Source of the DNA: a virus
Length of the DNA: 9,409 bases
Strand: one strand, 5' to 3'
Virus genome (UHGV): UHGV-0216968
Position numbers and translations under genes: made by a program. Positions 195 through 9,409 of this stretch are shown here, one piece after another; positions within the stretch are counted from its first letter, which is position 1; each line of letters begins with the position of its first letter. A model generated the notes under the pieces. It saw only the letters and a list, made by a program, of their open reading frames with translations, was not told the DNA's origin and searched no databases.

Positions 195-271
195 CGGCAC
201 GTAGCGCAGCCTGGTAGCGCACCGTCATGGGGTGTCGGGGGTCGGAGGTTCAAATCCTCTCGTGCCGACCA
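195..271 (+). tRNA. proL: tRNA-Pro (anticodon GGG)
   Basis: 77-nt cloverleaf: acceptor stem CGGCACG/CGTGCCG, D arm GCGC-AGCCTGGTA-GCGC, anticodon loop ATGGGGT, T arm GGAGG-TTCAAAT-CCTCT, encoded 3' CCA. Matches enterobacterial tRNA-Pro2 as I recall it. Confidence 0.85.
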
Positions 272-480: not shown

Positions 481-1722
481 ATGGCACGAAAAACCACCCC
501 ACTAACCATTACGGAGATCAAAAACGCACGACCAGGGGAAAAGGAATACACCCTGCAGGATGGCGGAGGATTATTTCTTCTGGTGAAGCCCTCCGGATCA
601 AAAATATGGCGTTTTACGTACTACCGCCCGGCAGATAAAAAACGGACTATTATCAGCCTTGGATCGCTGAATGATGTTTCCCTGTCTGATGCCAGAGAGC
701 GACGGAATGAATACAGGTCACTAATAGCAAAGGGAACTGACCCACAGGACCATGAACGCCGGAAACGTGAAGCAGAGAGCCGGAAAAAGGGCAACACGTT
801 CGAAAAAGTTGCCTCGGACTGGTACGAGATGAAAAAAGGCCAGAATCTGGCTTACAACACGATTAAGGATATCTGGCGATCCCTGGAAAAATACGTATTC
901 CCGTACATCGGAAACACGCCAATAGATACCCTCACCGCTCGCCGCTTTGTTGAGATACTCACCCCCATTAAAGCACGCGGCAACCTGGAAACTCTGAAAC
1001 GCGTTTTGCAGCGCATCAATGAAGTGATGGATTTTGCCGCCAACAGTGGGCTGATTGACATCAACACCGCCGCGAACGTCCGCAAGGCATTCCCCTCACC
1101 CACCAAAAAGCACATGCCAACCATCCGACCGGAACAGCTACCGCAGCTAATGCACGATTTATCGGTCGCCAGCATAGAACGGCAAACCAGATTGCTGATT
1201 GAGTGGCAACTGCTGACCGTAGCACGCCCAGCCGAAGCAGCCGCCGCACGCTGGGAAGAAATAGATCTCGATGCCGAAACCTGGACGATTCCAGCCGGAC
1301 GCATGAAGATGCGCCGTGACCATGTGATCCCCCTTTGCGGTCAGGCTATGGCTGTACTGGAAACCATGAAGCCAATCAGCGCACACAGGGAACACGTTTT
1401 TCCCAGCCTTAAAAATCCGATGCTGCCAATGAGCAGCCAGACCGCTAACGCTGCATTACGCCGGATGGGTTACGCTGGTGTGCTGGTGTCTCACGGATTA
1501 CGCGCCATATTCAGCACAGCAGCGAACGAGGAAGGATTCGAACCGGACGTAATCGAGGCCGCACTCGCACACGTGGACACGAACGAGGTAAGGCGGGCAT
1601 ATAACCGAAGTAACTACCTGGAAAAGCGCGTGGTGCTTATGCGCTGGTGGGGTGAATTTGTGGAGGCTGCAGCTACCGGAGTGACCATAGCCAGCGGTAA
1701 AAGGGGTATCCGTGCCGTGTAG
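481..1722 (+). CDS. int: P4-family tyrosine integrase, 413 aa
   Basis: ATG at 481 preceded by an A-rich leader. The N-terminal region (LQDGGGLFLLVKPSGSKIWRFTYYR) is typical of the arm-binding domain of P4-like integrases. The C-terminal catalytic region carries RRDHVIPL, HGLRAIFST and RRAYNRSNY (putative catalytic Tyr). It lies immediately downstream of a tRNA gene. Confidence 0.93.
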   Translation: MARKTTPLTITEIKNARPGEKEYTLQDGGGLFLLVKPSGSKIWRFTYYRPADKKRTIISLGSLNDVSLSDARERRNEYRSLIAKGTDPQDHERRKREAESRKKGNTFEKVASDWYEMKKGQNLAYNTIKDIWRSLEKYVFPYIGNTPIDTLTARRFVEILTPIKARGNLETLKRVLQRINEVMDFAANSGLIDINTAANVRKAFPSPTKKHMPTIRPEQLPQLMHDLSVASIERQTRLLIEWQLLTVARPAEAAAARWEEIDLDAETWTIPAGRMKMRRDHVIPLCGQAMAVLETMKPISAHREHVFPSLKNPMLPMSSQTANAALRRMGYAGVLVSHGLRAIFSTAANEEGFEPDVIEAALAHVDTNEVRRAYNRSNYLEKRVVLMRWWGEFVEAAATGVTIASGKRGIRAV

Positions 1723-6858: not shown

Positions 6859-6919
6859 ATGCCGAACAAGGCTGATGATAAGATTAACGCGACACTTTTA
6901 CTAAGTATTAAGAGGTTGT

Positions 6920-7960
6920 ATGAGTGATTTATATTCGCCAGCTATGTTAATACAGGTTGTTAATGCCGAAGATATTCAATGGCAGATTAATTCTTTATTT
7001 ATAAACCTTTTTTTTAAGCGAGTCGTTACATTTGAGACGCGGGATATTGCGCTTGATATTATTGACGATCCAGACATCCCGATGGCTGCATTTTGTTCCC
7101 CTATGGTTGGTAGCAAAGTCTCACGCGATGAAGGCTACGAATCGAAAGTAATTCGTCCTGGCTACATGAAGCCAAAAAGTAGTATCGATCCAAATAAAAT
7201 AGCCGTTCGTCAACCAGGCGTATCACCGGAACAATTCAATGCATATTCATCACGCAGTTTCAAAATAAAGCGAGCGTTAGTAAGACAAGCGCAGGCAATT
7301 CGTGCGCGTATTGAGTGGCTTGCTGTTCAGGCGGTTACAACGGGGAAAAATATCATTGAAGGCGATGGAATTGAACGTTATGAACTGGACTGGAATATAA
7401 AACCACAAAATATTATCACGCAGTCCGGCGGTACGGAGTGGAGCGGTAGAGATTTATCAACATTTGATCCAAACGATGACATCGAAGAGTACGCAGAAAT
7501 CAGCGAAGGTACTACAAATATCATCGTAATGGGCCGCAACGTATGGAAAAAATACCGCGCCTTTAAAGCAGTAAAAGATTGCCTTGATACTCGACGGGGA
7601 TCTAATTCCGTTCTTGAAACGGCCCTGAAAAATCTTGGGGATTCTGTAAGCTTCAAGGGTTACGTTGGCGATGTTGCTATTGTGGTATATAGCGGACGTT
7701 ATACCGACGAGGACGGAACTGAAAGATATTTCCTTGATCCTGATTTGATGGTGCTTGGCAACACATCATTACAGGGCATCGTTGCCTACGGTGGCATTCA
7801 GGATCCTGAGTTAATCAGAATGGGGCTTACTAAAGCCGAACTTGCGCCGAAAAATTACATCGTACCAGGTGATCCGGCTATTGAGTACGTACAAACGCAC
7901 TCTGCACCACAGCCAATACCGGCCCGCATCAATCGTTTTGTTACCGTTCGCATTGGTTAA
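6920..7960 (+). CDS. major capsid protein, lambda gpE family, 346 aa
   Basis: AGAGG at 6911-6915 precedes the ATG. Blocks shared with lambda gpE as I recall it: NIITQSGGTEWSGRD, FDPNDDIEEYA, NIIVMG, FKAVKDCLDTRRGSNSVLETA, GDVAIVVYSG, MVLGNT, GDPA. Length is close to lambda E (341 aa). Confidence 0.92.
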   Translation: MSDLYSPAMLIQVVNAEDIQWQINSLFINLFFKRVVTFETRDIALDIIDDPDIPMAAFCSPMVGSKVSRDEGYESKVIRPGYMKPKSSIDPNKIAVRQPGVSPEQFNAYSSRSFKIKRALVRQAQAIRARIEWLAVQAVTTGKNIIEGDGIERYELDWNIKPQNIITQSGGTEWSGRDLSTFDPNDDIEEYAEISEGTTNIIVMGRNVWKKYRAFKAVKDCLDTRRGSNSVLETALKNLGDSVSFKGYVGDVAIVVYSGRYTDEDGTERYFLDPDLMVLGNTSLQGIVAYGGIQDPELIRMGLTKAELAPKNYIVPGDPAIEYVQTHSAPQPIPARINRFVTVRIG

Positions 7961-7969
7961 GGGGGAGCA

Positions 7970-8311
7970 ATGGCTACTCATTACACTGAACTCATGGCTG
8001 GCACTGAAGCACTGGTTACTACGTTGGGGATATTTTCAGCTAATAAAGGGGTAATTCCTGCATTTACGCCACTGATGCAAGAAGATGCAACTGGTGCACT
8101 GGTGGTATGGGATGGAACGAGCGCAGGCAAAGCTGTTTATGTTTCCGCTGTACAAATCGATACAGCGACAAAAACGCAGGCTCAGGTTTATAAAACCGGC
8201 GTCTTAAATGTTGATGCTCTGAACTGGCCTGAATCTGTAACACAACTATCAGCAAAAGTTGCTGCGTTTGTTGGCTCAGGTATTTCTGTTCAGCCGCTGG
8301 CACGTGTGTGA
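7970..8311 (+). CDS. head decoration protein, lambda gpD family, 113 aa
   Basis: Strong Shine-Dalgarno AAGGGGGAG before the ATG at 7970. Matches lambda gpD blocks: THY, TPLM, VVWDGT, YKTG...WPE, AAF.G.GIS. Size is close to lambda D (110 aa). Confidence 0.85.
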   Translation: MATHYTELMAGTEALVTTLGIFSANKGVIPAFTPLMQEDATGALVVWDGTSAGKAVYVSAVQIDTATKTQAQVYKTGVLNVDALNWPESVTQLSAKVAAFVGSGISVQPLARV

Positions 8312-8320
8312 GGTACGAGA

Positions 8321-8665
8321 ATGATTGAAAGAGATAGTCAGCTACGAGAGCTATTAGATATCGATGATAAAATGCGCTTAAGCGAGCGTCTTGTCGATAT
8401 GGATCAGGTAGTGGAGCTTACAACCCTTAGCCGTCGCACATTGCTAAACCTTGAGGCTCGCGGAGAGTTCCCCGAACGCGTACAGGTTACGAAAGGCCGC
8501 AAGGCATGGTATTTAAGCGAAGTTGTTGCGTGGATTAACAACATTCCGCGCGCATCAAATTATTGCCTTGTTCCCACCCCCGAAAAACCTGATGCGGCGT
8601 TATGCCTCAAGATTGAACGCGCCAGGCGTAATGCCCTGAAAGGGCGCAATAAGTTGATTGGTTGA
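8321..8665 (+). CDS. second AlpA/excisionase-like HTH protein, 114 aa
   Basis: GAGGT at 8311-8315 precedes the ATG. Central region VVELTTLSRRTLLNLEARGEFPERVQVTKGRKAWYLSEVVAWI is a MerR/AlpA-type HTH. Stop lies 26 bp before the cosQ-like sequence. Confidence 0.7.
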   Translation: MIERDSQLRELLDIDDKMRLSERLVDMDQVVELTTLSRRTLLNLEARGEFPERVQVTKGRKAWYLSEVVAWINNIPRASNYCLVPTPEKPDAALCLKIERARRNALKGRNKLIG

Positions 8666-8691
8666 TGAAATTAGGGCCCGTTCTGGCTGGC

Positions 8692-8756
8692 GGGTCCTTT
8701 CCGGCGATCCGGCAGGCTACGGGGCGGCGACCTCGCGGGTTTTCGCTATTTATGAG
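8692..8756 (+). other. lambda-type cohesive end site (cosQ-like, cosN, proximal cosB)
   Basis: GGGCGGCGACCT at 8722-8733 equals the lambda 12-nt cohesive end. Upstream CGGGTCCTTTCCGGCGATCCGGCAGGCTACG matches the lambda right end with 3 substitutions. Downstream CGCGGGTTTTCGCTATTTATGA matches lambda left-end nt 13-34. Comparison is from memory of the lambda sequence. Confidence 0.8.
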
Positions 8757-8866
8757 CCTTTTTCGGGTGCTGGTGGTGGTTTTGTTGTTCGCTCTATCTC
8801 TATGAATAAAAAGGAAAAGATAAAGCCAATACACCAACCTGAAACATTACTTAAGTGGGGATATTG

Positions 8867-9409
8867 ATGAAATCGCACCTGATGAACAAAAAAAACATGG
8901 CGCAAAGCTGCCGTGTAAGTGCGACAGCGTTCGACAAGTGGGGAGTGACTCCCGTTGAACGTAAAGGCCGCGAGGCGTTTTATGATGTTGCCAGCGTAAT
9001 AGACAATCGGGTTAGCAATGCAATTAACCAGATTACAGACGACAAAGGCGAGATTGATGATGATGAACTCCTACGAGTCAGGATCAGATTGCTGACAGCA
9101 CAGGCAGAGGCGCAGGAGCTTAAAAACGAGCGCGAACGCGGCGACGTTATTGATACAGCGTTTTGTATATACGTGCTTTCAAAATTGGCGAGTCAGATTT
9201 CTTCAATCATGGACAGCCTGCCGCTTGCCATGACAAGGAAGTTTCCCGACATGAAGCCGTCTATGCTGGATGGACTGAAAAAAGAAGTTATCAGAGCCTG
9301 TAACGCATGCGCAAAACTTGACGAAAACATACCGCTGATGCTGTCCGATTATCTGATGGAAACTGCCGGAAACGTACCGGATAAGTTGCAGCCGAATAAA
9401 GATAAGTAA
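8867..9409 (+). CDS. terminase small subunit, lambda Nu1 family, 180 aa
   Basis: ATG at 8867; alternative starts are GTG 8855 and ATG 8882. The N-terminus (MNKKNMAQSCRVSATAFDKWG...FYDVASVIDNR) parallels the Nu1 winged HTH (MEVNKKQLADIFGASIRTIQNWQ...LYDSAAVIKWY). The C-terminal half is strongly Nu1-like (RLLTAQAEAQELKNERERGDVIDTAFCIYVLSKLASQISSIMDSLPLAMTRKFPDMK). Stop falls at the window end. Confidence 0.88.
   Translation: MKSHLMNKKNMAQSCRVSATAFDKWGVTPVERKGREAFYDVASVIDNRVSNAINQITDDKGEIDDDELLRVRIRLLTAQAEAQELKNERERGDVIDTAFCIYVLSKLASQISSIMDSLPLAMTRKFPDMKPSMLDGLKKEVIRACNACAKLDENIPLMLSDYLMETAGNVPDKLQPNKDK

What the first reader, a model, noticed from the sequence alone, without database searches (positions are those of the whole stretch)
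8692..8756. Near-exact lambda cosQ-cosN inside the island, with divergent cosB
The 12-nt cohesive-end core and about 30 bp on each side are almost identical to the lambda genome ends, while the surrounding proteins are only about 40-50% identical to their lambda counterparts. This is nucleotide-level conservation of the terminase cleavage site only. From about 8757 onward the sequence no longer resembles lambda cosB. Instead it contains the direct repeats TTCGCTATTTATGA (8742-8755) and TTCGCTCTATCTCTATGA (8788-8805) and a GGTG-rich tract, which are candidates for island-specific small-terminase binding sites. The pattern fits exploitation of a helper large terminase (cuts cosN) combined with private recognition of cosB.
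Basis: partly seen in the sequence, partly recalled or inferred. Interest (0 to 1): 0.8.

Follow-up and report, generated by a model that had tools for sequence, protein, structure and literature searches.

The report
Satellite island's lambda-type cos site
This is the DNA-packaging (cos) site of a small E. coli phage-satellite island. It keeps the cutting site of lambda-like helper phages almost letter for letter, but pairs it with its own N15-type recognition site and its own small terminase, a little-studied variant of a known piracy strategy.

Summary
Window 8692-8756 matches the joined lambda cos at 61 of 65 bases, with cosN GGGCGGCGACCT at 8722-8733. It is the only part of the 2.5-kb late region with strong nucleotide similarity to any of 50,697 phage records. 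The flanking proteins are 38-42% identical to lambda Nu1, E and D.

The element is a ~9.7-kb island of the EcCICFT073 (Gram-negative PICI) family, inserted at tRNA-Pro. A lambda-like cosQ/cosN with a foreign cosB is already published for that family (Fillol-Salom 2018, 2019; Murialdo & Feiss 2022).

What differs here:
- Rpp is replaced by a full-length Nu1-family small terminase.
- Its DNA-binding domain is N15-type: 58% identical to N15 gp1, against 36% to lambda Nu1.
- cosB is a diverged N15/Monarch-class R3-spacer-R2 array: a GT tract at 8772-8789 and an inverted CAATACACCAAC at 8827-8838.
- In 80 of 80 evaluable loci the GT tract is followed by this TerS type, across nine cosN variants.
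- cosB+terS and cosB+rppA are alternative cassettes in an otherwise 95%-identical backbone.

No experiment supports the mechanism. I rate it a new variant of a known kind, of moderate interest.

The parts
195..271 (+). tRNA-Pro(GGG), the chromosomal attachment site at the island's left end
   Evidence: ARAGORN. The same tRNA-Pro/yejM context is seen in the 90%-identical island of strain 504239.
481..1722 (+). Island tyrosine integrase
   Evidence: Pfam Phage_integrase, Phage_int_M and Arm-DNA-bind_3.
6920..7960 (+). Island homolog of the lambda major capsid protein E
   Evidence: Pfam Phage_cap_E, E=2e-41; 42% identical to lambda gpE. It sits in the same module as EcCICFT073 c1499.
7970..8311 (+). 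Island homolog of the lambda head decoration protein D
   Evidence: Pfam HDPD; 41% identical to lambda gpD.
8321..8665 (+). AlpA-family HTH protein immediately upstream of cos
   Evidence: Pfam Phage_AlpA; PHROG 2790, excisionase/transcriptional regulator.
8692..8701 (+). cosQ-equivalent, GGGTCCTTTC, 30 bp upstream of the first cohesive-end base
   Evidence: Identical to lambda at the same distance from cosN. At least 95% conserved across 68 distinct island cos regions. The role in packaging termination is inferred from lambda (PMC6739421 introduction).
8722..8733 (+). cosN cohesive-end core GGGCGGCGACCT. Predicted nicks fall before 8722 on the top strand and after 8733 on the bottom strand.
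   Evidence: 12/12 identical to lambda; single copy in the window. The nick positions are inferred from lambda.
8734..8768 (+). cosN-to-R3 spacer shared with lambda-like phages.
   Evidence: 30/35 identical to lambda. Also shared with N15, phage 4 and EcCICFT073. Homology between the TerS-type and Rpp-type islands ends at about bp 41 of this spacer.
8772..8789 (+). R3-equivalent GT-rich tract GGTGGTGGTTTTGTTGTT (bp 51-68), the proposed primary binding site of the island TerS
   Evidence: It sits at the position of lambda R3 and N15 R3 (N15 R3 is bp 48-59, PMC4669245). Conserved in islands whose TerS is only 59% identical and whose cosN differs. 16/21 identical, in register, to the R3 region of an N15-type helper phage. 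In 80 of 80 evaluable loci it is followed by an [AS]FDKWG TerS.
8790..8826 (+). A/T-rich spacer between the two R-like elements, a possible bend or I1-equivalent.
   Evidence: Only TATC...ATGAWT is moderately conserved. No IHF consensus match here. 13/21 identical to the equivalent stretch of the N15-type helper (read).
8827..8838 (-). Inverted R2-equivalent, CAATACACCAAC on the top strand (GTTGGTGTATTG on the bottom strand), bp 106-117
   Evidence: An element fitting [CAG]A[AC][TC]A[CT]A[CGA][CA][CA]A[CT] is found in 67 of 68 distinct cos regions, and at exactly bp 106 in 65 of them. The search pattern did not impose it. 11/12 identical to the inverted R-like element AATACAACAACC of the N15-type helper phage.
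8867..9409 (+). Island small terminase (TerS, Nu1 family, 180 aa): an N15-type winged-HTH domain followed by a Nu1-like oligomerisation and C-terminal region
   Evidence: PHROG 57, full length, E=5e-51. Pfam Phage_Nu1 covers residues 66-148. 48% identical to N15 gp1 including the DNA-binding domain; 38% to lambda Nu1. No similarity to RppA. A GGGGA Shine-Dalgarno lies 5 nt before the ATG.
8658..8867 (+). ORF lying across cos, annotated 'hypothetical protein' in relatives; probably not a gene
   Evidence: The same reading frame is interrupted by stop codons in 6 of 7 other island types.

Best explanation
Window 8692-8838 is the packaging site of a helper-dependent phage satellite of the EcCICFT073 (Gram-negative PICI) family. 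It is built from two modules.

Module 1 is cosQ, cosN and the first ~40 bp to the right. It is kept nearly identical to lambda-like helper phages, so that the helper large terminase (gpA-type TerL) can nick cosN and terminate at cosQ.

Module 2 is cosB plus the adjacent terS gene. It is the island's own and belongs to the N15/Monarch specificity class, not lambda's. The island TerS uses an N15-like winged helix-turn-helix to bind the GT tract at bp 51-68 and probably the inverted element at bp 106-117. Its Nu1-like central and C-terminal parts then bring in the helper TerL. Island concatemers are therefore cut and packaged, terS end first, in preference to helper DNA.

Shown here:
- the sequence anatomy;
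- the homologies;
- the co-inheritance of cosB with terS;
- the absence of a TerL gene next to terS in 80 loci. In the relatives where the island's right end was seen, only a 93-aa ORF follows terS.

Inferred, not shown:
- DNA binding by TerS;
- TerL recruitment;
- actual cutting at cosN;
- discrimination against helper DNA.
For: 1. cosQ, cosN and the spacer are near-identical to lambda, and among the listed matches they are the only phage-like nucleotide stretch in the late region. On the cosQ side, 37/37 bases match a lambda-like prophage that hosts an island with a 100%-identical terS.

2. The gene after cos is a full-length Nu1-family TerS. Its DNA-binding domain is 58% identical to N15 gp1 but 36% to lambda Nu1. 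The predicted secondary structure is helix-helix-hairpin-helix, in a low-confidence model.

3. Phylogenetic footprint. Across islands from E. coli, Enterobacter, Citrobacter, Kosakonia and Superficieibacter, the GT tract and the inverted element stay fixed while the flanks and even cosN change. There are nine different cohesive-end 12-mers.

4. Association. All 8 island types found through the protein carry the tract. All 80 evaluable loci found through the DNA pattern carry the [AS]FDKWG TerS 100-220 bp downstream. None has a TerL next to it, and 76 of the 82 loci also carry the island MCP and Dec.

5. Domain pattern. Among island TerS, the DNA-binding domain is 74-94% conserved and the C-terminal 42 residues 36-62%. 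In 26 sequences, 30 of the first 51 residues are invariant, against 4 of those 42.

6. Cassette behaviour. An island at the phoQ site is 95% identical to EcCICFT073 up to cos bp ~41. It then carries cosB+terS where EcCICFT073 carries cosB+rppA. Homology resumes at the inverted cos2. The rpp identity of that ORF was confirmed against PDB 6HLK.

7. Experimental precedents in the literature. The N15 R3 is at bp 48-59, with bp 54-59 critical. A lambda hybrid with N15 cosB and the N15 TerS DNA-binding domain is viable with lambda TerL (PMC4669245). In EcCICFT073, cosB determines Rpp-dependent packaging (PMC6739421).
Against: - There is no experimental evidence for this island type. The two TerS-encoding E. 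coli PICIs tested in 2018 (IHE3034, 18098) were not mobilised on mitomycin C induction, and their helpers are unknown (PMC6092414).
- The C-terminal 42 residues, which in lambda Nu1 bind gpA, are only 40% identical to lambda's. N15 and lambda are about 80% identical there (read). Direct binding to lambda-type TerL is therefore uncertain.
- The same TerS (100% identical) sits in prophages whose TerL is 99.8% and 66% identical to gpA. There is no sign of partner co-variation.
- The R3 similarity is low-complexity. A local alignment to N15 alone is not significant: 204 of 2000 shuffles reach it.
- The helix/R3 co-variation (SATAFDKWG with TTTGTTGTT; GVTAFDKWG with GTTGTTGTT) separates two clades and is not a set of independent events.
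- The AlphaFold model has low confidence (pLDDT 57.5).
Confidence: 0.6

Rival explanations
1. Rpp-like heteromer. The island TerS does not replace the helper TerS. It co-assembles with it through the conserved central oligomerisation region. The mixed complex reads the island cosB, and the helper TerS supplies the TerL-binding tail. This would both block helper packaging and redirect it.
For: This is the demonstrated mechanism for the sister cassette rpp, where helper terS is strictly required (PMC6739421, PMC9026076). The central region (residues 93-125) is the part best conserved with lambda Nu1, at 52%. The C-terminal tail is poorly conserved with lambda, at 40%. E. coli islands carry a weak lambda-R2-like stretch at 8800-8820 (17/21; 14-20 of 2000 shuffles reach it) that could seat a helper Nu1 subunit.
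Against: Unlike Rpp (135-153 aa, no TerL-binding tail), this protein keeps the full Nu1 length and an alignable C-terminal region with the LDExIPxLLxxY pattern. The lambda-R2-like stretch is absent from the Enterobacter and Citrobacter islands. There is no sequence similarity to Rpp.
Confidence: 0.2
2. cosB is not private. The island mimics N15/Monarch-class helper phages, whose own TerS reads the island's GT-rich R3/R2. The helper holoenzyme then packages the island directly. The island TerS would be redundant, a backup, or mainly an interference factor.
For: One contig (L081) shows the same island embedded in a lambdoid phage whose TerS has the N15 recognition helix (ISVQAFDKWGV). That phage's cosB has GGTGGTTGTTGTTTAA at bp 48-63, plus inverted and direct GGTTGTTGT elements. 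The island is 16/21 identical to it in register over bp 48-68, and 11/12 in the inverted element. N15-type terminase is known to be permissive, since it also packages lambda DNA (PMC4669245).
Against: Within the hexamer critical for N15 (bp 54-59), the island reads GGTGGT, against TGTTGT in that phage and GTTGTT in N15. The recognition helix also differs at two positions, AT against VQ. Identical islands also sit in prophages with a pure lambda Nu1 and lambda cosB. In the 26 aligned island TerS, 30 of the first 51 residues are invariant, and all 80 evaluable loci keep an uninterrupted TerS reading frame through the recognition motif; this argues for function rather than redundancy. No phage among 50,697 records has a TerS more than 48% identical.
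Confidence: 0.12
3. Inert relic. The cos-terS segment is a captured left end of a lambdoid phage ('late gene capture') with no current role in island transfer.
For: Gram-negative PICIs are known to capture helper late genes (PMC10111431). The E and D homologs of EcCICFT073 are dispensable for transfer (PMC6092414).
Against: The segment is present in 765 of 5,426 complete E. coli genomes and in at least four other genera, with an intact TerS ORF. It shows block-wise conservation of exactly the functional sub-sites. cosN varies while cosQ, R3 and R2 are retained. The equivalent cos1 of EcCICFT073 is required for transfer (PMC6092414).
Confidence: 0.05

Closest known systems
EcCICFT073 (PICI-A) cos1 + rppA (Fillol-Salom 2018, 2019; Murialdo & Feiss 2022)
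   Same: Same island family and the same gene order: capsid E homolog, D homolog, small ORF, cos, specificity gene, 93-aa ORF. cosQ, cosN and the spacer are lambda-like and cosB is foreign. A TerS-type relative is 95% identical to EcCICFT073 up to cos bp ~41.
   Different: The specificity protein here is a 180-aa Nu1-family TerS, not a 135-153-aa Rpp. There is no detectable sequence similarity between them. cosB reads GGTGGTGGTTTTGTTGTT here and GGTGACACCACCACCAC in EcCICFT073. No second, inverted cos was seen in the window or in its 90%-identical relative.
Phage N15 cos / gp1 and the 'Monarch' group of N15-specificity prophages (Feiss et al. 2015)
   Same: N15 gp1 is the closest phage TerS (48% overall, 58% in the DNA-binding domain, shared AFDKWGV helix). 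The short form lacks the lambda insertions. The GT-rich R3 sits at the same distance from cosN. The inverted second element resembles the R3-I1-R2 layout described for Monarch (PMC4669245).
   Different: cosN and its flanks are lambda-type, not N15-type (GGGCGGCGTCCG). The critical hexamer is GGTGGT instead of GTTGTT. No TerL gene follows terS. No third, direct R element was seen before terS, and no rR2-like site is conserved inside terS.
Bacteriophage lambda cos (cosQ-cosN-cosB, Nu1/gpA)
   Same: 61/65 identical over cosQ-cosN-spacer. The distance from cosQ to cosN is the same, and cos lies directly upstream of the small terminase gene.
   Different: There is no lambda R3 (8/18) and no clear I1 or R1. 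TerS is 38% identical, with a different recognition helix.
SaPI-encoded TerS (pac-type staphylococcal islands)
   Same: The same logic: the satellite encodes its own small terminase, which partners with the helper large terminase and recognises a site only on the satellite (as summarised in PMC6092414 and PMC6739421).
   Different: SaPIs use headful (pac) packaging with an unrelated TerS family. Here packaging is cos-type with defined cohesive ends.
Helper-embedded PICIs (HE-PICI, e.g. 11capE; PMC10111431)
   Same: Relatives of this island, some with 100%-identical terS, are inserted in the capsid (E) or portal (B) gene of lambdoid prophages.
   Different: The window's copy is at a chromosomal tRNA-Pro. 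The described 11capE lacks terS.
Capsid-forming PICIs (cf-PICI)
   Same: Both carry capsid-related genes and a terS.
   Different: cf-PICIs encode a complete head and packaging module. Here only E-like, D-like and TerS are present. No portal, protease or TerL was seen.

Membership tests
Lambda-like cos site | 12-nt cohesive-end sequence (cosN) of the lambda family | tested here: met
   GGGCGGCGACCT at 8722-8733, 12/12 identical to lambda.
Lambda-like cos site | cosQ element about 30 bp upstream of cosN | tested here: met
   GGGTCCTTTC at 8692-8701, identical to lambda at the same spacing and conserved in 68 distinct island cos regions.
Lambda-like cos site | cosB with lambda-type R3-I1-R2-R1 sites | tested here: not met
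   8/18 identical at R3. No IHF consensus in 8757-8866. Only a weak R2-like stretch.
Lambda-like cos site | Staggered nicking by terminase, giving cohesive ends on virion DNA | not testable with these tools
   Requires sequencing or mapping the ends of packaged DNA.
Gram-negative cos PICI (EcCICFT073 family) | Small (~10 kb) island with int, alpA and a replication module, lacking lysis, tail and TerL genes, at a site of its own | tested here: met
   int, AlpA, RepA-type helicase, SSB and the tRNA-Pro att site. In the relatives whose right end was seen, only a 93-aa ORF follows terS: yejO follows it at the yejM site and phoQ at the EcCICFT073 site.
Gram-negative cos PICI (EcCICFT073 family) | Helper-like cosQ/cosN combined with a cosB different from the helper's | tested here: met
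   In a natural island-in-prophage pair, the island and prophage cosB are unrelated while the cosQ side is 37/37 identical.
Gram-negative cos PICI (EcCICFT073 family) | Rpp protein encoded next to cos | tested here: not met
   The gene after cos has no BLASTP similarity to RppA and no PDB sequence match to RppC. The CFT073 ORF does match RppC, at E=5e-31.
Gram-negative cos PICI (EcCICFT073 family) | Induction, replication and high-frequency transfer by a helper phage | not testable with these tools
   Shown only for EcCICFT073 (PMC6092414). The TerS-encoding E. coli PICIs tested there were not transferred.
Nu1-family small terminase | Full-length match to the Nu1/TerS family, with an N-terminal winged HTH and a C-terminal Nu1 region | tested here: met
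   PHROG 57 over residues 1-176, E=5e-51. Pfam Phage_Nu1 over residues 66-148, above the curated cut-off. Alignable end to end with lambda Nu1 and N15 gp1. Secondary-structure topology fits a winged HTH, from a low-confidence model.
Nu1-family small terminase | Adjacent large terminase partner gene | tested here: not met
   None of the 80 loci has a gpA homolog after terS. In the relative L001, a 93-aa ORF and then chromosomal yejO follow terS.
N15/Monarch packaging-specificity class | TerS recognition helix of N15 type | tested here: met
   SATAFDKWGV here against SVQAFDKWGV in N15. The DNA-binding domain is 58% identical.
N15/Monarch packaging-specificity class | R3 matching the N15 R3 (GAGGTTGTTGTT, bp 48-59) | tested here: inconclusive
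   A GT-rich triplet tract lies at the same position: 9/11 identical with a 1-bp shift, and 16/21 in register to an N15-type prophage. The critical hexamer differs at 2 of 6 positions, and the local alignment to N15 is not significant on its own.
Capsid-forming PICI | Complete head module (portal, protease/scaffold, capsid, connectors) plus TerS and TerL | tested here: not met
   Only E-like, D-like and TerS genes are present.

The most novel reading that the evidence does not exclude
Enterobacterial cos PICIs have a second packaging-piracy route that is uncharacterised and apparently more common than the first. Instead of Rpp, the island carries a full-length Nu1-family TerS of the N15/Monarch class. 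Its recognition helix and its matched R3/inverted-R2 sites have been re-tuned (G for T in the critical hexamer). This TerS would replace the helper's TerS on the helper's TerL, and so could work with helpers of both lambda and N15 packaging specificity. The cosB+terS and cosB+rpp units would be interchangeable cassettes that recombine through the universally conserved cosQ-cosN sequence, which in some islands is present as two inverted copies.
Probability: 0.45. Interest if true: 0.6.

Novelty: new variant of a known kind. Interest (0 to 1): 0.45.

Why it matters
How satellites get themselves packaged in place of their helper is central to how virulence and defence islands spread.

For Gram-negative cos islands, the only mechanism worked out so far is Rpp. 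At megablast sensitivity, the TerS-type cassette is in 765 of 5,426 complete E. coli genomes, against 97 for rppA, and no paper found in the held library analyses its cos, cosB or TerS specificity; TerS-encoding E. coli PICIs are only catalogued there.

If the TerS really substitutes for the helper's TerS, three things follow:
- It gives a natural experiment on how lambda-family TerS-R site specificity is re-tuned: two helix residues against two base pairs.
- It would explain why identical islands sit in prophages with different packaging specificities.
- It offers a compact cos+terS module (about 0.75 kb) for building PICI-based delivery vehicles that are packaged without packaging the helper.

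Tried and rejected
The first copy is in the spacer shared with lambda, N15, phage 4 and EcCICFT073. The repeat finder did not report the pair.
- **ORF 8658-8867 across cos as a real gene: rejected.** It matches PHROG 11159, but the frame carries stops in 6 of 7 other island types.
- **A second cos in the window, as in EcCICFT073: not found.** The 2-mismatch match at 2022-2033 is at chance level.
- **A promoter or terminator inside cosB: none by consensus scan**.
- **An IHF site between the R-like elements: no match**.
- **An N15-like rR2 inside terS.** The inverted match 8884-8897 exists only in E. coli islands and falls on the NKKN codons, so it is probably a coding coincidence.
- **PDB sequence search for a Nu1 DNA-binding-domain or Rpp match: nothing**.
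- **Protein-pattern scan of genome contigs: no confirmed relative**, because the exact peptides were too strict.
- **Looking for phages with the Citrobacter-type cosN.** The best hit was Gifsy-1 at 80%. The idea that cosN tracks the helper therefore remains an inference. Its only support is the GGGCGGAAGGCG variant, which occurs both in a lambda-like prophage and in two islands.
- **AlphaFold model of TerS.** pLDDT was 57.5, too low for a fold search, so none was run.
- **Co-variation of the C-terminal domain with cosN or with helper TerL: not seen**.
Full report
**1. Observation**

GGGCGGCGACCT lies at 8722-8733 and is the only exact copy in the window. I number positions from the first cohesive-end base, so lambda bp N corresponds to window 8721+N.

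Against the joined lambda cos of prophage DE3, in register:

| Segment | Identical |
|---|---|
| bp -30..-1 | 27/30 |
| cosN (bp 1-12) | 12/12 |
| bp 13-47 | 30/35 |
| bp 48-65 (lambda R3) | 8/18 |
| bp 66-145 | 33/80 |

blastn against 50,697 phage records finds 95 lambda-like records. All match only 8690-8767, at 86-92% identity and E down to 2e-23. With the whole 6900-9409 region as query, the same 77-78 nt are the top-ranked nucleotide match in every listed record. A few records hold a second, weaker place that I did not inspect.

The neighbouring proteins are 38% (Nu1), 42% (E) and 41% (D) identical to lambda.

**2. What the element is**

The window is a small island at tRNA-Pro(GGG). Its genes, in order:
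- integrase and AlpA;
- a DUF4222 protein, a RepA-type helicase and SSB;
- homologs of lambda E and D;
- a second AlpA-like protein;
- cos;
- a 180-aa Nu1-family small terminase.

In a 90%-identical E. coli relative, only a 93-aa ORF follows terS before chromosomal yejO. There is no large terminase, portal, protease, tail or lysis gene.

The gene order is that of EcCICFT073, the model Gram-negative PICI. I located that island in CFT073: capsid, decoration protein, a 137-aa ORF, cos1, a 144-aa ORF and a 93-aa ORF. The 144-aa ORF matches RppC, PDB 6HLK, at E=5e-31.

**3. What is already published**

Fillol-Salom et al. reported that EcCICFT073 has cosQ and cosN like lambda and phi80 but no phage cosB. 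They also showed that Rpp binds the helper TerS and redirects it to the island cosB (PMC6092414, PMC6739421). Murialdo and Feiss proposed an R3-equivalent at bp 48-65 (PMC9026076).

The 2018 paper notes that some E. coli PICIs encode TerS (strains IHE3034 and 18098). Those were not mobilised and were not analysed further. My literature searches found no description of their cos, cosB or TerS specificity.

**4. What is different here**

The protein after cos is not Rpp. It has no BLASTP similarity to RppA and no PDB sequence match. It is a full-length TerS (PHROG 57, residues 1-176, E=5e-51).

Its closest phage relative among 50,697 records is N15 gp1, at 48% identity over 166 residues.

Identity of the window TerS to other TerS, by domain:

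| Compared with | DNA-binding domain (1-50) | C-terminal 42 residues (126-167) |
|---|---|---|
| N15 gp1 | 58% | 40% |
| lambda Nu1 | 36% | 40% |
| Other island TerS | 74-94% | 36-62% |

In 26 island sequences, 30 of the first 51 residues are invariant, against 4 of the 42 C-terminal residues.

An AlphaFold model is of low confidence (pLDDT 57.5). Its secondary structure is helix 8-14, helix 19-24, hairpin 29-39, helix 41-56, which is the winged-HTH order. I did not run a fold search on it.

**5. Anatomy of cosB**

I retrieved islands through the TerS protein, from E. coli at two other sites and from Enterobacter, Citrobacter and metagenomes. All carry the same capsid-decoration-HTH-cos-terS module.

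Aligning their cos regions shows conserved blocks:
- cosQ, GGGTCCTTYC;
- cosN;
- CGCTATTTATGA (bp 23-34);
- GGTGGTGGTKTTGTTGTT (bp ~51-68; window 8772-8789);
- a weak TATC..ATGAWT;
- CAATACACCMAC (bp 106-117; window 8827-8838).

I then ran a DNA-pattern scan for the lambda-type spacer plus the GT tract. It found 2 genome contigs (Superficieibacter, Kosakonia) and 109 viral contigs, of which 80 were fetched, giving 82 loci. The results:
- 80 of 80 evaluable loci have an ORF with the [AS]FDKWG helix starting 100-220 bp after bp 1.
- 76 of the 82 loci carry the island capsid and decoration genes.
- None has a TerL next to terS.
- Nine different cohesive-end 12-mers occur among them.
- An element fitting the bp 106-117 consensus is found in 67 of 68 distinct cos regions, and at exactly bp 106 in 65 of them. 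The search pattern did not require it.

**6. Relation to N15-class phages**

Published mapping puts the N15 R3 at bp 48-59 (GAGGTTGTTGTT). Scrambling bp 54-59 lowers yield about 100-fold. A 'Monarch' group has the N15-type R3 and helix but a three-R layout with an IHF site. A lambda hybrid with N15 cosB and the N15 TerS DNA-binding domain is viable with lambda TerL (PMC4669245).

One viral contig (L081) begins at a cos site and shows such a phage. Its TerS has the helix ISVQAFDKWGV, and its TerL is 66% identical to gpA. Its cosB elements are:
- GGTGGTTGTTGTTTAA at bp 48-63;
- an inverted AATACAACAACC;
- a direct GGTTGTTGT before terS.

An island whose terS is 100% identical to the window's is inserted in that phage's portal gene.

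In register, the island and this phage are 16/21 identical over bp 48-68 and 11/12 in the inverted element (read). The island cosB is therefore a diverged R3-spacer-R2 array of the N15/Monarch class.

It differs at 2 of the 6 critical positions: GGTGGT in the island, TGTTGT in that phage, GTTGTT in N15. The recognition helix differs at two residues, AT against VQ.

Within islands, the helix SATAFDKWG goes with ...TTTGTTGTT and GVTAFDKWG with ...GTTGTTGTT. This separates two clades, so it is not independent evidence.

**7. Modularity**

An island at the phoQ site (L019) is 95% identical to EcCICFT073 through the capsid genes and cos, up to bp ~41. It then diverges completely, carrying cosB+terS where EcCICFT073 carries cosB+rppA. 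Homology resumes at the inverted cos2. cosB and the specificity gene are thus inherited as one cassette, bounded by cos sequences.

On the helper side, the window's cosQ segment is 37/37 identical to that of a lambda-like prophage in strain CFSAN018748. That match includes bases lambda does not share. The prophage has a lambda Nu1 (one substitution) and a lambda cosB, and it hosts an island with a 100%-identical terS in its portal gene.

Other copies of the same island sit in prophages whose gpA is 99.8% identical to lambda's. Candidate helpers therefore include both lambda-specificity and N15-specificity phages.

**8. Mechanism**

Best explanation (confidence about 0.6):
1. The helper TerL nicks the lambda-type cosN and terminates at cosQ.
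2. The island TerS binds its own R3 and R2 through the N15-like domain.
3. The TerS recruits TerL through its Nu1-like body and tail, in the manner of SaPI TerS but for cos packaging.

The sequence relationships and associations are shown. Binding, recruitment, cutting and discrimination are inferred.

Weak points:
- The C-terminal tail is only 40% identical to lambda's.
- I see no co-variation with helper TerL.
- TerS-type E. coli PICIs failed to transfer in the one published test.

Rivals:
- an Rpp-like heteromer with the helper TerS (0.2);
- mimicry of N15-class helpers, so that cosB is not private (0.12);
- an inert captured relic (0.05).

**9.

The first repeat, 8742-8755, is in the spacer common to lambda, N15, phage 4 and EcCICFT073. 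It cannot give island specificity. The second, 8788-8805, overlaps the moderately conserved A/T-rich spacer between the two R-like elements. The GT tract and the inverted element are the better candidates.

**10. Verdict**

The finding is real and functionally meaningful, but its principle is published. What my searches did not find described is the TerS-for-Rpp variant, its N15/Monarch-class cosB, the cassette exchange and its prevalence: 765 of 5,426 complete E. coli genomes against 97 for rppA at megablast sensitivity. I rate it a new variant of a known kind, interest 0.45.

Noticed in passing
L004:2606-2621 (EcCICFT073 cos1 bp 48-63) compared with window 8772-8780: The R3 core proposed in the literature for Rpp-type islands, ACCACCACC (bp 55-63), is the exact reverse complement of the (GGT)3 in TerS-type islands (bp 51-59). 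The two specificity proteins show no sequence similarity. This could reflect an ancestral site that was inverted, or it could be coincidence.
   Followed up: partly
window 8772-8780; L017, L071, L001 and L019 at the same position: The number of GGT units in the tract varies from 2 to 4 between otherwise close islands, through 3-bp and 6-bp indels. This shifts the TTTGTTGTT part by up to 6 bp relative to cosN. In lambda, the cosN-to-R3 spacing tolerates only 1-2 bp of change.
   Followed up: partly
L027-L106, L014, L021 and L023, at cosN (window 8722-8733 equivalent): Nine or more different 12-nt cohesive-end sequences occur among islands that share the same cosB and TerS type, for example GGGCGTCAGGCG, GGGCGGAGACCT, GGGCGGCAGACG and AGGCGGCAGCGT. 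GGGCGGAAGGCG is found both in a lambda-like prophage (CFSAN018748) and in two islands. The island embedded in that prophage nevertheless has the lambda-type GGGCGGCGACCT.
   Followed up: partly
L007-L013, L022, L042, L047, L081, L094, L099: Close relatives of this island, some with identical terS, are inserted inside late genes of lambdoid prophages: capsid gene E in Enterobacter-type loci and portal gene B in E. coli. These are helper-embedded PICIs that carry terS, whereas the described 11capE lacks it.
   Followed up: partly
window 8800-8820: CTATGAATAAAAAGGAAAAGA is 17/21 identical to the lambda R2 region CTCTGAAAAGAAAGGAAACGA, a score reached by 14-20 of 2000 shuffles. It keeps the T, C, C positions that are critical in lambda R sites. 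It is present only in E. coli islands, not in the Enterobacter or Citrobacter ones.
   Followed up: partly
window 8647-8659 (- strand): A perfect match to the IHF consensus WATCARNNNNTTR (AATCAACTTATTG) lies at the 3' end of the AlpA-like gene, about 35 bp upstream of cosQ. No such match lies inside cosB.
   Followed up: no
window 8884-8897 compared with 8777-8790: GAACAAAAAAAACA, in codons 6-10 of terS, is 86% complementary to the GT tract TGGTTTTGTTGTTC. This recalls the remote inverted rR2 inside N15 gene 1. It is not conserved in the Enterobacter or Citrobacter islands and coincides with the NKKN codons.
   Followed up: yes
window 8658-8867: The ORF across cos matches PHROG 11159 over its full length (E=2e-48) and is annotated as a hypothetical protein in RefSeq relatives. 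Its frame is nevertheless broken in most other island types. A protein family seems to have been built on a non-coding cos region.
   Followed up: yes
window 6920-8311: The island keeps intact homologs of lambda capsid protein E and decoration protein D (42% and 41% identical) but has no portal, protease or scaffold gene. In EcCICFT073, the equivalent genes are dispensable for transfer and interference. Their role is unexplained; small-capsid formation is one possibility.
   Followed up: no
L019:4684-4760 and L004:3265-3340: Islands at the phoQ site carry a second, inverted cosQ-cosN copy (cos2) downstream of the specificity gene. The cosB+terS or cosB+rpp cassette is therefore bracketed by inverted cos sequences. 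The window and its tRNA-Pro-site relative show no second copy.
   Followed up: partly
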